From NCBI RefSeq assembly GCF_054482525.1, contig NZ_CM137006.1: DNA of 64,000 bases. One strand, written 5' to 3'. Below are positions 7,930 to 60,269 of the stretch, piece by piece. Both the position numbers and the translations under genes were made by a program. The number at the start of each line of letters is the position of its first letter. Position 1 is the first letter of the stretch. A model generated the notes under the pieces. It had not been told where the DNA came from. It did no database searches and saw only the letters and a program-made list of their open reading frames with translations.

Positions 7930-7955
7930 TTCTCCCGATTTCCTCAATTGCAATG

Positions 7956-7986
7956 AACCCGATGATCTGCGCATCGGGTTTTTTAT
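7956..7986 (+). terminator. rho-independent terminator after cheW
   Basis: stem AACCCGATG/CATCGGGTT followed by T-run. Confidence 0.6.
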
Positions 7987-8015
7987 TTCAATTTAGCGGT
8001 AGGTGGCATCTGCAA

Positions 8016-8042
8016 TAAAGTTTCCCCCCTCCTTGCCGATAA
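8016..8042 (+). promoter_or_regulatory. sigma28 (FliA) class III promoter of the tar-tap-cheRBYZ operon
   Basis: TAAAGTTT - 11 nt - GCCGATAA is an exact match to the sigma28 consensus, about 30 bp upstream of the tar ATG. Confidence 0.8.
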
Positions 8043-20757: not shown

Positions 20758-21513
<756 letters not shown>

Positions 21514-21559
21514 TTTTTACCGTTGCATCATGTCGCCCAATATGATGCTTGCTCGTACC

Positions 21560-21592
21560 AGGCCCCTGCAATTTCAACAGGGGCCTTTTTTT
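21560..21592 (+). terminator. rho-independent terminator after cutC
   Basis: stem AGGCCCCTG/CAGGGGCCT followed by T7. Confidence 0.65.
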
Positions 21593-51762: not shown

Positions 51763-52422
51763 ATGGCTAACTGGTTAAATCAACTGCAATCCTTGCTTGG
51801 GCAAAGCAGTTCTTCTGCCTCCTCGTCTGCGGATCAGGGATTGGGCAAACTTTTAGTGCCAGGCGCATTAGGCGGACTGGCTGGGCTGCTGGTCGCAAAT
51901 AAATCAGCACGTAAACTTCTTACGAAATATGGCACCAACGCGTTACTGGTTGGCGGCGGAGCGGTCGCGGGTACGGTGCTGTGGAATAAATACAAAGATA
52001 AAATTCGCGCGGCGCATCAGGACGAACCGCAGTTTGGCGCGCAAAGTACGCCGCTGGATGAGCGTACGGAACGTTTGATCCTTGCGCTGGTCTTTGCCGC
52101 TAAAAGTGATGGTCATATTGATGCCAAAGAACGTGCGGCAATCGACCTGCAATTGCGTGAAGCCGGCGTGGAAGAACAGGGGCGTGTACTCATTGAGCAG
52201 GCAATCGAACAACCGCTGGATCCACAACGCCTGGCTACCGGGGTCCGCAATGAAGAAGAGGCGCTGGAAATCTATTTCCTGAGCTGCGCGGCTATTGATA
52301 TTGACCATTTTATGGAACGCAGTTACCTGAATGCACTGGGTGACGCGCTGAAAATCCCCCAGGATGTTCGTGACGGCATTGAACGCGATCTCGAACAGCA
52401 AAAACGTACTTTGGCGGAATAA
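51763..52422 (+). CDS. yebE: DUF533-family inner membrane protein YebE
   Basis: 219-aa ORF matching YebE. Confidence 0.9.
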
Positions 52423-52585
52423 TTCCGCTCTCTGGATAGCCTGAAGTTGACTATTTCGGGCTATCCAGAACCGCACAGCCATTTGAGCAGGCTGATTTTC
52501 TCTGTCTGCATAACATTCGATATCCGCGCCATTACCTGTCATCATGTGACTGCTCCCCGCCCTGTCGGGCGAGGCTTCCCACTTC

Positions 52586-53762
52586 TTAAGCCGCAACCGT
52601 CTGTGTGACGGATTTACGCTGGCCTCCATGGGCAGAAACGACGAGTCCCGCCGCTTGTAATTCCAGTATGCCCTTGCGTTTGATGTTGAGCGCCGCGTTG
52701 ATATCGCGGTCATGTTCAACTCCACACTCTGGACACTGCCAGATGCGCTTATGTAATGGCATCTCCGACATTTTGTGACAGCAGCAGTGGCAGGTCTTCG
52801 AACTGGCGAACCATTGATCCAGTTTCACCAGATGCACACCTTTCTCTGTTGCTTTGTATTCCAGTTTTGTGATGAATCCAGACCATCCAGCATCGCCTAT
52901 CGCACGAGCCAGATGGTGATTTTTCATCATATTTGCCGTTTTCAATGTCTCGACAATTACCGCTTGGTTTTCGTCAACAATTGCGCGAGATAACTTGTGC
53001 TGGAAATCGGCACGGGCACTGGCTACCCGTTCGTGAACGGCTGCAAGTTGTATTCTGGCTTTGCGCCTGTTTGCGCTCCCTTTTTTCTTACGGGACAGTG
53101 CTTCCTGCTTCCTGCTTCCGGCGCAGGTTGCGACTTGCATTGATTAGGTGGCGGGGACTGGCAATTTTATTGCCGTCCGATTTGATGACAAAATGCGCCA
53201 GCCCCATATCCAGCCCTGTCACATTTGATATCAGTGCGGGCTTTGCCGGCGCTTCCATCCCGTCGTCACAGAGTAACGACGCGTAGTATTTCCCGGTTGC
53301 GCTGCGGCTCAACGTGATACTTTTCAGCATTCCCGTAATTTCACGATGTAAACGCGCTTCAATCGGCAAGATTTTCGGTATTTTTATCGCACCATCAAGG
53401 ACTTTTATGCCAACACAATGATAGCTCGATTGTCTGCCGTGTTTACTTTTAAAGGTTGGTTTACCTGCTTTCAGTTTCGGATTGAAAAAGTTAGAAAAAG
53501 CCACGTCGAGGTTAATTACCGCCTGCTGCAACGCAATAGAATCATATTCTTTAAGCCATCCATACCGGCGGGATTTCTTCGCCACTGCAAGCAGTGGTTT
53601 GAGGTCTTTACGCGGGTTTAAATTTACGCGGTGCCGCTGGTAAGAATGTTTCTTGATATGCAGAGCTTTGTTGTACGCAAAACGCACTGCACCGAACTGG
53701 GCGTTGATAAATTCAGCCTGTTCTGGTGTCGGATAGATGCGTACTTTTGTTGCTCTTAACAT
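52586..53762 (-). pseudogene. tnpB: tnpB (IS605 OrfB / RNA-guided nuclease family), split by a frameshift
   Basis: ORF 53088..53762 (N-terminal part, HTH and RuvC-I GLDMGL) and ORF 52586..53140 (RuvC-II IVETL, zinc finger CHCC...CPEC, RuvC-III DRDINAA) are adjacent and in different frames; the break coincides with three tandem copies of a 7-bp unit at 53100..53120. Confidence 0.75.
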
Positions 53763-53818
53763 AATCAGCGCTCATTGATATAATGCTTTTATTTTAACAC
53801 TTTAGGTGAATATATCAA

Positions 53819-54232
53819 TTGAGTAATCATGATGATTTACTGGCGGGATTTCTCCGCAAACGACACAGTGTCAGTAAGCTGGTTGTGCACCTTATTTTTA
53901 CGACAAAGTATCGACGCAAACTATTCGACAGTCAGATGATCGCTCAGTTGCGTGAGGCTTTTGGCTCCGCTGCGGCAAAGCTTGAATGCGAAATTATTGA
54001 GATGGACGGGGAGCCAGACCATGTACACCTGCTGGTTGCCTACCCGCCAAAACTGGCGGTCAGTGTGATGGTCAATAATTTAAAATCGGTATCATCACGT
54101 TTGCTACGCCAGCAGAACGCGCATTTACGTATGCAGAGTAAAACGGGGCTTTTGTGGTCGAGATCGTACTTTGTCTGTAGCACCGGAGAGGCAACGATTG
54201 AAACGCTCAGAGCCTACGTTCAGAGTCAGTAA
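53819..54232 (+). CDS. tnpA: IS200/IS605-family Y1 (HUH) transposase TnpA
   Basis: 137-aa ORF with HVHLL (HUH) motif and C-terminal catalytic Tyr context WSRSYF; apparent TTG start 9 nt downstream of an AGGTGA ribosome-binding site. Confidence 0.7.
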   Translation: MSNHDDLLAGFLRKRHSVSKLVVHLIFTTKYRRKLFDSQMIAQLREAFGSAAAKLECEIIEMDGEPDHVHLLVAYPPKLAVSVMVNNLKSVSSRLLRQQNAHLRMQSKTGLLWSRSYFVCSTGEATIETLRAYVQSQ

Positions 54233-54373
54233 ACACCTGATTGATCTTTAAAGCCCTGCGGGCTTTTCGCCTTATATCCCCGCCCGCATTGGGCGAGGGT
54301 TTACGGCGTTTTTCGCTAAGCAATGACTACCCTGTTTCGCTTGCATCTCCGGTGAGTTTTGCCACCCTTATAA

Positions 54374-57120
<2,747 letters not shown>

Positions 57121-59945: not shown

Positions 59946-60032
59946 AACATTTAAGCTAATGACCCCCACGCTTTTTATTGACCATTTTGCACGCAAACTG
60001 GAAAACCTGGCGTCGTCATCTATTCTTAAAGG

Positions 60033-60135
60033 GCAAGGCAACTAAGCCTGCATTAATGCCAACTTTTAGCGCACGGCTCTCTCCCAAGAGCCATTTCCCT
60101 GGACCGAATACAGGAATCGTGTTCGGTCTCTTTTT
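60033..60135 (+). ncRNA. sdsR: small RNA SdsR (RyeB), sigmaS-dependent Hfq-binding sRNA
   Basis: GCAAGGCAACTAAGCCTGCATTAATGCCAACTTTTAGCGCACGGCTCTCTCCCAAGAGCCATTTCCCTGGACCGAATACAGGAATCGTGTTCGGTCTCTTTTT matches the SdsR sequence from memory and ends in a terminator hairpin plus U-run; -10 element CATCTATTCT with C at -13 just upstream. Confidence 0.85.
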
Positions 60136-60269
60136 ATCTGTTAAAAGCCAGAAGCATTCCTTTCGCTGACTTTATAGTCAACCATAACACACACTCTACT
60201 GTCTGAGTCCAGCATTTTTTAACATTCCTGTTAAGATTATGTGATCTTTAGCGCGGGAGGAAAATATTG

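What the first reader, a model, noticed from the sequence alone, without database searches (positions are those of the whole stretch)
52520..52700. Candidate omega-RNA / element-end region downstream of tnpB
In characterised IS200/IS605 elements the TnpB guide RNA is transcribed from the 3' end of tnpB through the element end, with the guide drawn from flanking DNA. Here the 3' end of tnpB (52586) is followed on the minus strand by the subterminal hairpin (52555..52574) and the element/flank junction near 52536. Even with tnpB frameshifted, this non-coding RNA could still be made.
Basis: inference. Interest (0 to 1): 0.55.

Follow-up and report, generated by a model that had tools for sequence, protein, structure and literature searches.

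The report
ISEc46 TnpB guide-RNA (omega RNA) region
The region encodes the guide-RNA scaffold of a catalogued E. coli insertion sequence (ISEc46), built like the well-studied ISDra2 guide RNA, but its partner nuclease gene is broken here, so it is a real, ordinary and probably idle feature.

Summary
The window is E. coli chromosome with an ISEc46 (IS200/IS605) insertion between yebE and ptrB. An empty K-12 site and a second insertion site put the element at 52546..54315. The right-end junction is therefore 52545/52546, not about 52536.

The last ~111-125 nt of the element on the minus strand (52546..52656/52670) hold a conserved RNA structure. In 37 non-redundant relatives, 96.5% of cells pair and 21 of 36 pairs show compensatory changes, including pairs inside the tnpB coding sequence. 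Shuffled and slid controls score far lower.

The stems sit at nearly the same positions as stems 1-4 of the cryo-EM ISDra2 omega RNA. A covariance model built from this family also finds the 3' ends of ISDra2-like tnpB genes. Conservation stops exactly at ...GAGCAGTCAC, after which the flank (the guide) varies. TTAG precedes the left end in 49 of 52 insertion sites.

So this is an omega-RNA gene whose guide (52545..52530) targets the empty yebE-ptrB site. In this copy tnpB carries a 7-bp duplication, so a mature, active RNP is unlikely. It is a new member of a known kind and of low interest.

The parts
52546..54315 (-). Whole ISEc46 element (IS200/IS605 family), 1770 bp including a 7-bp duplication. 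On the minus (tnpB-sense) strand the order is TTAG | LE - tnpA (antisense) - tnpB - RE | flank.
   Evidence: Comparison with the empty K-12 site and a second insertion site. RefSeq annotates identical copies as 'ISEc46 family'.
52546..52656 (-). Omega-RNA scaffold core, positions -111..-1.
- Stem 1: 52656..52649 with 52643..52636.
- Stem 2 (long range, coding to non-coding): 52632..52628 with 52582..52578.
- Stem 3a: 52624..52618 with 52594..52589.
- Stem 3b: 52611..52607 with 52601..52597.
- Stem 4, the RE hairpin: 52574..52567 with 52562..52555.
- 3' tail AGCAGUCAC: 52554..52546.
   Evidence: RNAalifold and pair counts on 37 relatives. The covariance model R1 matches 52546..52670 at 140 bits. 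Synonymous-site diversity falls from about 0.75 to 0.36 in codons 361-380.
52644..52647 (-). Candidate pseudoknot strand GACU in the stem-1 loop, proposed to pair with AGUC at 52548..52551 in the 3' tail.
   Evidence: Inferred by analogy with the ISDra2 pseudoknot, where -105..-103 pairs with -5..-3. Both strands are nearly invariant. There is no covariation, and 7 of 37 sequences have a U-U mismatch. Inconclusive.
52530..52545 (-). Predicted 16-nt guide, 5'-AUGAUGACAGGUAAUG-3', taken from flanking yebE-ptrB intergenic DNA. With 20 nt it would extend to 52526.
   Evidence: It lies directly 3' of the RE boundary. In the empty site it directly follows TTAG. The guide length is taken from ISDra2 and was not measured here.
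52586..53762 (-). tnpB pseudogene. The two ORFs are 53762..53088 and 53140..52586. The frameshift is caused by a 7-bp tandem duplication at 53106..53119.
   Evidence: The intact 389-aa protein from strain 315 is a full-length homologue of ISDra2 TnpB (E 4e-73), and D185/E269/D351 align with D191/E278/D361.
53819..54232 (+). tnpA, a Y1 HUH transposase. In the window it ends 4 codons early (TCA to TAA at 54230..54232) compared with other copies.
   Evidence: NF033573, E 1e-41.
54233..54315 (-). Left end (LE) with its subterminal hairpin at 54278..54299.
54316..54319 (-). Target / TAM tetranucleotide, TTAG on the minus strand (CTAA on the plus strand). It belongs to the host flank.
   Evidence: It is present in the empty K-12 site. 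TTAG abuts the LE at 49 of 52 independent insertion sites.
53791..53818 (-). Sigma-70-like promoter, TTGATA-16-TAAAAT with TG, in the tnpA-tnpB divergent spacer. It is the likely tnpB / omega-RNA precursor promoter.
   Evidence: Consensus scan only. Not tested.

Best explanation
Window 52546..52656 (up to about 52670), minus strand, is the scaffold of the omega RNA (right-end guide RNA) of ISEc46, an IS200/IS605 element inserted between yebE and ptrB.

In an intact element the mechanism would run as follows.
1. The tnpB mRNA is transcribed through the right end into the flank.
2. TnpB cuts out the last ~110-125 nt plus about 16 nt of flank as its guide RNA.
3. The RNP cleaves DNA that carries TTAG followed by the flank sequence ATGATGACAGGTAATG...
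4. That target is exactly the empty yebE-ptrB site left when TnpA excises the element, so the break is repaired from a sister copy and the element is restored (homing/retention).

Shown here: the element boundaries, the conserved covarying structure, its homology to the ISDra2-type omega RNA, the variable flank after the boundary, and the TTAG target.

Inferred from established work on ISDra2, AmaTnpB and Geobacillus elements: transcription, processing, TnpB binding and cleavage.

In this particular copy tnpB is inactivated by a 7-bp duplication. The scaffold is sequence-intact but has no nuclease partner in cis, so it is most likely an idle relic.
For: - Boundaries: empty site and second insertion site. 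About 70 loci lose all similarity right after GAGCAGTCAC.
- Structure: 37 sequences at 57-93% nucleotide identity. 96.5% of cells pair, against 35-52% when the partner is slid. 21 pairs have double changes, against 3-8. Covariation score is 0.40 against at most 0.11. 0 of 500 shuffles reach any observed measure. The RNAalifold covariation term is -6.1.
- Overlap with coding sequence: stems 1-3 lie inside or bridge the tnpB coding sequence, where synonymous diversity is halved.
- Architecture versus ISDra2 (PMC10097598), ISEc46 first and ISDra2 second:
  - stem 1: -111..-104 / -98..-91 versus -116..-111 / -91..-86
  - stem 2: -87..-83 / -37..-33 versus -84..-81 / -35..-32
  - stem 3a: -79..-73 / -49..-44 versus -77..-71 / -48..-42
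  - stem 3b: within -66..-52 versus -70..-49
  - stem 4 loop: -21..-18 versus -20..-17
- Cross-detection: model R1 finds full-length matches ending exactly at ...GUUCAA at the 3' ends of tnpB genes in three loci. Two are Deinococcus, whose TnpBs are 82% and 80% identical to ISDra2 TnpB. One is Nostoc, at 54%. E-values are 7e-8 to 5e-6.
- Protein: TnpB is a full-length ISDra2 homologue with the RuvC D-E-D triad.
- Target: TTAG at 49 of 52 left-end junctions.
- Mechanism in related elements.
Against: - No expression data could be examined.
- The pseudoknot has no covariation support, and 7 of 37 sequences mismatch.
- Rfam gives nothing above threshold. This is uninformative, because Rfam also fails to detect the ISDra2-like right ends.
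- Stem 4 is also the DNA hairpin recognised by TnpA, so its covariation does not distinguish an RNA role from a DNA role.
- In this copy tnpB is frameshifted, and no other tnpB or omega-RNA lies in the 64 kb, so current function is doubtful.
Confidence: 0.9

Rival explanations
1. The conserved structure serves only at the DNA level. It would be the right-end subterminal hairpin that TnpA binds on single-stranded DNA during peel-and-paste transposition, and the rest of the conservation would simply be protein-coding constraint on the TnpB C-terminus.
For: The RE hairpin (52555..52574) has a near-twin in the LE (54278..54299) on the same strand, as expected for TnpA substrates. Covariation in that hairpin fits a DNA role equally well.
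Against: Three further helices, 30-110 nt inside the element, covary strongly. These include a long-range helix that joins coding and non-coding sequence (helices 2, 4, 5 and 6). Synonymous sites are specifically constrained in the last ~28 codons. The helices map onto the RNA seen in the ISDra2 TnpB cryo-EM structure. The two roles are not exclusive: stem 4 very probably does both.
Confidence: 0.05
2. The 3' structure is a transcription terminator or an mRNA-stabilising 3' end for tnpB, not a guide RNA.
For: A G+C-rich hairpin sits 12 nt after the tnpB stop codon.
Against: No U-tract follows it; the tail is AGCAGUCAC, which is conserved. The terminator scan reports nothing at the right end. 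The conserved structure extends about 70 nt upstream into the coding sequence and is homologous to a known guide-RNA scaffold.
Confidence: 0.03
3. In this strain the locus is a dead relic. The scaffold sequence is intact, but no mature omega RNA accumulates and nothing is guided, because TnpB is absent.
For: - tnpB carries a 7-bp duplication that separates RuvC-I from RuvC-II/III and the zinc finger.
- tnpA also ends 4 codons early.
- TnpB RuvC activity is needed for 5' processing.
- There is only one tnpB and one omega-RNA in the window, and one copy in the nearly identical PCN033 chromosome.
Against: The scaffold is identical to that of intact copies, so the damage is recent. Plasmid-borne relatives with about 83% identical 3' regions and fully preserved stems circulate in E. 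coli and might supply TnpB in trans. This concerns present activity, not identity, and is compatible with the best explanation.
Confidence: 0.75

Closest known systems
ISDra2 TnpB omega RNA (reRNA) of Deinococcus radiodurans; cryo-EM structures 8H1J / 8EXA (Nakagawa et al. 2023, PMC10097598; Karvelis et al. 2021, PMC8612924)
   Same: - It is encoded in the last ~115 nt of the element and overlaps the tnpB 3' end.
- It has four stems at almost the same distances from the right-end boundary, with a tetraloop hairpin 10 nt from the end and the guide taken from the flank.
- The cognate TnpBs align end to end (E 4e-73) with the same RuvC triad.
- A covariance model of the ISEc46 family detects the right ends of ISDra2-like elements.
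   Different: - The primary sequence is largely different.
- The tail is AGUCAC rather than GUUCAA.
- The predicted TAM is TTAG rather than TTGAT.
- The stem-1 loop is 5-7 nt rather than 19 nt, and ISDra2 has three extra codons there.
- The pseudoknot register is shifted by one position and is not verified.
- tnpA and tnpB are divergent in ISEc46.
- No biochemical work has been done on ISEc46.
Geobacillus stearothermophilus ISGst TnpB/omega RNA homing system (Meers et al. 2023, bioRxiv 10.1101/2023.03.14.532601)
   Same: The logic is the same: TAM plus the RE-flank equals the donor joint re-created by TnpA excision. For this copy the empty-site sequence TTAG|ATGATGACAGG... exists in K-12.
   Different: That function was demonstrated experimentally in Geobacillus elements. 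Here it is inferred, and the nuclease gene is broken.
sotRNAs / HgcC family (Rfam RF02656, RF00062): sense-overlapping transcripts at tnpB 3' ends (Gomes-Filho et al. 2015, PMC4615843)
   Same: They are the same class of RNA, a 3'-overlapping tnpB transcript with an RE-like tetraloop hairpin. The only Rfam hits in the region are to these two families.
   Different: The hits are far below threshold (15.2 and 11.7 bits; E 1.7 and 5.6) and cannot count as membership. Those families are archaeal.

Membership tests
TnpB omega RNA (IS200/IS605 right-end guide RNA, ISDra2 type) | Encoded at the 3' end of tnpB, overlapping the coding sequence and running to the right-end boundary of the element | tested here: met
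   The conserved structure spans -111..-1. The tnpB stop is at -43..-41. The boundary was fixed by the empty site and about 70 loci.
TnpB omega RNA (IS200/IS605 right-end guide RNA, ISDra2 type) | Conserved secondary structure supported by compensatory changes | tested here: met
   21 of 36 pairs have double changes and 96.5% of cells pair. Slid and shuffled controls are far lower.
TnpB omega RNA (IS200/IS605 right-end guide RNA, ISDra2 type) | Four-stem architecture at the positions seen in the ISDra2 cryo-EM structure | tested here: met
   Stem positions agree to within a few nt (against PMC10097598).
TnpB omega RNA (IS200/IS605 right-end guide RNA, ISDra2 type) | Pseudoknot between the stem-1 loop and the nucleotides just 5' of the guide | tested here: inconclusive
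   Complementary GACU/AGUC strands sit at the right places. They are invariant, and 7 of 37 sequences have a central U-U mismatch.
TnpB omega RNA (IS200/IS605 right-end guide RNA, ISDra2 type) | Detectable sequence-plus-structure homology to an experimentally characterised omega RNA | tested here: met
   Model R1 hits the right ends of ISDra2-like (80-82% TnpB identity) and Nostoc elements. The hits are full length, end at the element boundary, and have E 7e-8 to 5e-6.
TnpB omega RNA (IS200/IS605 right-end guide RNA, ISDra2 type) | Guide is the variable host sequence directly 3' of the scaffold | tested here: met
   All loci share ...GAGCAGTCAC and then have unrelated sequence.
TnpB omega RNA (IS200/IS605 right-end guide RNA, ISDra2 type) | Cognate, catalytically competent TnpB encoded in cis | tested here: not met
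   Met for the family. In this window tnpB is split by a 7-bp duplication. The RNA gene therefore belongs to the family, but the system here is incomplete.
TnpB omega RNA (IS200/IS605 right-end guide RNA, ISDra2 type) | The RNA is transcribed, 5'-processed by TnpB, bound by it, and directs TAM-dependent DNA cleavage | not testable with these tools
   No transcriptome or biochemical data are available. Only a promoter-like site upstream of tnpB was found.
IS200/IS605 insertion sequence (ISEc46) | Y1 HUH TnpA, subterminal hairpins at both ends on one strand, insertion 3' of a fixed tetranucleotide without target duplication | tested here: met
   TnpA matches NF033573. Hairpins are at 52555..52574 and 54278..54299. 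There is no duplication at the junctions, and TTAG occurs at 49 of 52 sites.
Rfam families HgcC (RF00062) / sot0042 (RF02656) | Score at or above the curated gathering threshold | tested here: not met
   15.2 bits against a threshold of 50, and 11.7 against 88.
Intrinsic (Rho-independent) terminator | G+C-rich hairpin followed by a U-run | tested here: not met
   No terminator was called at the right end, and the tail is AGCAGUCAC.

The most novel reading that the evidence does not exclude
The chromosomal scaffold-plus-guide, orphaned by the tnpB frameshift, could still be transcribed and loaded in trans. The TnpB would come from related ISEc46-family copies on E. coli plasmids, whose omega-RNA stems are fully preserved. 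In that case a guide-only locus would still direct cleavage of empty yebE-ptrB alleles, for example in incoming DNA or after TnpA excision. The insertion would then stay fixed without its own nuclease.
Probability: 0.08. Interest if true: 0.45.

Novelty: new member of a known kind. Interest (0 to 1): 0.22.

Why it matters
This is mostly a clean annotation result. It gives exact boundaries for ISEc46, a covariation-supported omega-RNA model for a widespread gammaproteobacterial TnpB clade that Rfam does not cover, and a predicted TAM (TTAG). It also shows that this copy, at a site occupied in about 8% of complete E. coli genomes, has lost its nuclease. The model and the TAM could guide testing of ISEc46 TnpB as a compact editor. 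They do not change our understanding of TnpB systems.

Tried and rejected
- Rfam at gathering and at permissive thresholds gave nothing significant. It also misses the ISDra2-like right ends, so the absence is uninformative.
- RNAalifold proposed a long-range GAC/GUC helix (A5 columns 58-60 with 244-246) and a 2-bp helix (26-27 with 34-35). I dropped both because they never vary and have no counterpart in ISDra2.
- An internal promoter for the omega RNA: the promoter-like site at 52953..52926 has a -10 that is not conserved (N275 is AAC in 37 and AAT in 17). Rejected as evidence.
- Pairing of the invariant tnpB block (52961..52975) with the omega RNA, by analogy with the AmaTnpB inhibitory region: the duplex energies are not outliers.
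- The exact ISDra2 DNA is not in the plasmid collection, so I used 80-82% identical Deinococcus relatives instead.
- The K-12 insQ (IS609) locus, intended to link to published sotRNA RNA-seq: it was not in the region I fetched and is too divergent for blastn.
- A literature search for ISEc46 found only genome surveys and one phylogenetic catalogue. No omega-RNA work turned up.

Full report
**Context.** The window is Escherichia coli chromosome (purT-yebG-yebF-yebE ... ptrB-exoX). A megablast of 52380..54420 against 5,426 complete E. coli genomes found the flanks in 5,425 genomes. The full segment was present in 448 genomes. RefSeq annotates it as 'IS200/IS605-like element ISEc46 family transposase' plus 'RNA-guided endonuclease InsQ/TnpB family protein'. 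In strain PCN033, which is 99.9% identical, the tnpB is flagged 'frameshifted'.

**Checking the observation.**
- The tnpB frame ends at 52586 on the minus strand.
- Aligning the window with two intact copies shows a 7-bp tandem duplication, 53106..53119 on the + strand, that splits tnpB into two ORFs.
- The junction is not at about 52536.
  - The empty site in K-12 reads ...TCATCAT|CTAAGCAATG... .
  - The occupied site reads ...TCATCAT|GTGACTGC ... GCGTTTTTCG|CTAAGCAATG... .
  - A copy at another locus (strain GF3-3) shares the sequence from G52546 to the CTAA.
- The element is therefore 52546..54315. CTAA (TTAG on the tnpB strand) belongs to the target.
- By IS200/IS605 rules (established knowledge; described for related elements), the TTAG-proximal end is the left end. 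The right end is at 52546, downstream of tnpB.

**Relatives.**
- The intact 389-aa TnpB, taken from strain 315, aligns over its full length with ISDra2 TnpB (PDB 8BF8/8EXA/8H1J, E 4e-73). D185/E269/D351 sit opposite the catalytic D191/E278/D361.
- It passes the NCBIfam guided_TnpB model. The neighbouring gene is an IS200-type Y1 transposase.
- A scan of one genome per species returned 80 loci with 62-98% protein identity. They come from Photorhabdus, Xenorhabdus, Serratia, Rahnella, Idiomarina, Vibrio, Shewanella, Marinospirillum, Halomonas and others.
- In every locus that reaches the end, similarity persists to ...GAGCAGTCAC and then stops abruptly. This independently fixes the right end at 52546. 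It also shows that whatever lies 3' of it differs in each copy, as a guide should.

**Structure.** I aligned the last 220 nt of 37 non-redundant copies (less than 94% identical to one another; 57-93% identical to the window).
- RNAalifold predicts five helices, and 21 of its 37 predicted pairs are kept through changes on both sides.
- Counting my cleaned structure, five nested helices plus a candidate pseudoknot, gave:
  - 96.5% of cells paired, against 35-52% when the 3' partners are slid by 1-3 columns;
  - 21 pairs with double changes, against 3-8;
  - covariation score 0.40, against at most 0.11;
  - 0 of 500 shuffles reaching any observed measure.
- Three helices lie in, or bridge into, the coding sequence for the TnpB C-terminus (...AAGLVVSAHGGQRKSVTQTVAA). 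Examples: CCCAU/GUGGG alternates with CUUAU/AUAAG and CCAAU/GUUGG, and CCGUC/GACGG alternates with CUGGC/GCCAG, CUUGU/ACAAG and CUCGA/UCGAG.
- Consistent with an overlapping RNA constraint, normalised synonymous-codon diversity is about 0.65-0.84 over most of the gene. It drops to 0.36 in codons 361-380. This places the 5' limit of the constraint near 52660-52670.

**Comparison with the known structure.** Nakagawa et al. (PMC10097598) describe the ISDra2 omega RNA as a 116-nt scaffold. Numbering the ISEc46 sequence the same way, with -1 = 52546, gives:

| Feature | ISDra2 | ISEc46 |
|---|---|---|
| Stem 1 | -116..-111 / -91..-86 | -111..-104 / -98..-91 |
| Stem 2 | -84..-81 / -35..-32 | -87..-83 / -37..-33 |
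| Stem 3a | -77..-71 / -48..-42 | -79..-73 / -49..-44 |
| Stem 3b | -70..-49 | -66..-62 / -56..-52 |
| Stem 4 tetraloop | -20..-17 | -21..-18 |
| Pseudoknot | -105..-103 with -5..-3 | candidate only: GACU (-102..-99) with AGUC (-6..-3) |

- The shorter stem-1 loop matches the three fewer codons that ISEc46 has at that point.
- The pseudoknot strands never covary, and 7 of 37 sequences carry a central mismatch. I treat the pseudoknot as inferred only.

**Direct homology test.** I built a covariance model (R1: 125 positions, 32 pairs) from the family.
- In the window it finds exactly one site, 52546..52670 on the minus strand, at 140 bits. This sequence was in the seed.
- It also finds a sequence that was not in the seed, on an IncI-type plasmid, at 140 bits.
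- With filters off it finds full-length matches at the 3' ends of tnpB genes in two Deinococcus plasmids, whose TnpBs are 82% and 80% identical to ISDra2 TnpB, and in a Nostoc plasmid.
  - Each match ends exactly at the ...GUUCAA right-end terminus. E-values are 7e-8, 3e-6 and 5e-6.
  - In the Deinococcus sequence, GGA at -105..-103 faces UUC at -5..-3, as published.
- Rfam 15 reports nothing significant either for the window or for these ISDra2-like ends, so its silence carries no weight.
- The only sub-threshold Rfam hits in the region are to HgcC and sot0042. Both families are linked to tnpB 3' ends (PMC4615843). At E 1.7 and 5.6 they are not evidence.

**Target and mechanism.**
- TTAG abuts the left end at 49 of 52 independent insertion sites. 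The exceptions are TTAA (2) and TTCG (1). TTAG is therefore the TnpA target and the predicted TnpB TAM.
- The guide predicted for this copy is 5'-AUGAUGACAGGUAAUG (52545..52530).
- In the empty K-12 site this sequence directly follows TTAG.
- An ISEc46 TnpB-omega RNA complex would therefore recognise exactly the donor joint left by excision. This is the retention/homing mechanism shown for Geobacillus elements.
- In the occupied window the TAM and the target are separated by the element. The best near-match is the RE/flank junction itself, which lacks the TAM.

**State of this copy.**
- The scaffold is identical to that of intact copies.
- tnpB is split between RuvC-I and RuvC-II. tnpA also ends four codons early.
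- The window holds no other tnpB and no other omega-RNA.
- A sigma-70-like promoter sits upstream of tnpB (53818..53791), and no terminator follows the right end. A read-through precursor is therefore plausible.
- However, 5' processing is carried out by the TnpB RuvC domain (PMC10278001). A mature, active guide RNA in this strain is therefore unlikely unless a related TnpB is supplied in trans.

**Verdict.** It is an orthologue of a well-understood RNA in a catalogued insertion sequence. Papers that mention ISEc46 are genome surveys, so the specific omega RNA has not been described. The kind, however, is fully known. Interest is low.

**Side observation, unexplained.** One 16-nt block inside tnpB, TTGACGAAAACCAAGC (codons 260-265; window 52977..52962, minus strand), is the only run of at least 6 nt with at least 90% column identity across 57 family members.
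- It lies four codons before the RuvC-II glutamate.
- An inhibitory mRNA region next to RuvC-II has been reported for AmaTnpB.
- I found no special complementarity to the omega RNA and no conserved promoter.

Noticed in passing
window 52962..52977 (minus strand; tnpB codons 260-265): The block TTGACGAAAACCAAGC is invariant at the nucleotide level. It is the only run of at least 6 nt with at least 90% identity in the whole tnpB coding sequence across 57 relatives of 62-98% protein identity. Codon counts are GAC 54/54, GAA 54/54, AAC 53/54 and CAA 57/57, while the same amino acids elsewhere use codons freely. It lies 4 codons upstream of the RuvC-II catalytic Glu. The position recalls the inhibitory mRNA region reported next to RuvC-II in AmaTnpB (PMC10278001). 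No pairing with the omega RNA and no conserved promoter was found.
   Followed up: partly
L085 2501..2798 (E. coli plasmid pAST217_2) and about 380-400 plasmid places in E. coli genomes: An orphan omega-RNA scaffold (R1 140 bits, all stems intact) with only the last ~258 nt of tnpB ('zinc ribbon domain-containing protein', pseudogene). It sits 16 nt downstream of pilV and abuts a truncated shufflon recombinase gene on IncI-type plasmids. It is about 85% identical to the window copy.
   Followed up: partly
window 54230..54232: tnpA of this copy ends at TAA where other copies have TCA, removing the last 4 residues. The C-terminal ...RAYVQSQ motif is retained. With the tnpB frameshift, both genes of this copy carry lesions.
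   Followed up: partly
window 52737..52739 (A3 column 1021; tnpB zinc-finger codon): A GGT to TGT change (Gly to Cys) turns the conserved CHCCGH of the zinc-finger motif into CHCCCH in this copy only.
   Followed up: no
L005 (contig labelled MAG Collinsella sp.) and L007 (MAG Candidatus Paceibacterota): L005 carries ISEc46 with the same yebE-ptrB flank as E. coli (ATGATGACAGGTAATGGCGCGG...). It is almost certainly an E. coli contig mis-binned into a Collinsella MAG. L007 (88% identity to the enterobacterial TnpB) is likely a similar contaminant.
   Followed up: no
window 52431..52469: A 17-bp perfect inverted repeat (CTCTGGATAGCCTGAAG...CTTCGGGCTATCCAGA-like) lies just after the yebE stop, without a T-run on either strand. 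It lies in the path of any transcript reading out of the ISEc46 right end.
   Followed up: no
E. coli plasmids, hits H79-H82: 38-nt matches at 97-100% identity to only the terminal RE hairpin plus tail (window 52546..52583). They fall in unannotated plasmid DNA. They may be solo right ends or miniature derivatives.
   Followed up: no
window 21285..21592, 59995..60139, 7949..8026: Rfam gathering-level hits elsewhere in the window: MicL, SraC/RyeA with SdsR/RyeB, and C0465. All are expected E. coli sRNAs.
   Followed up: no
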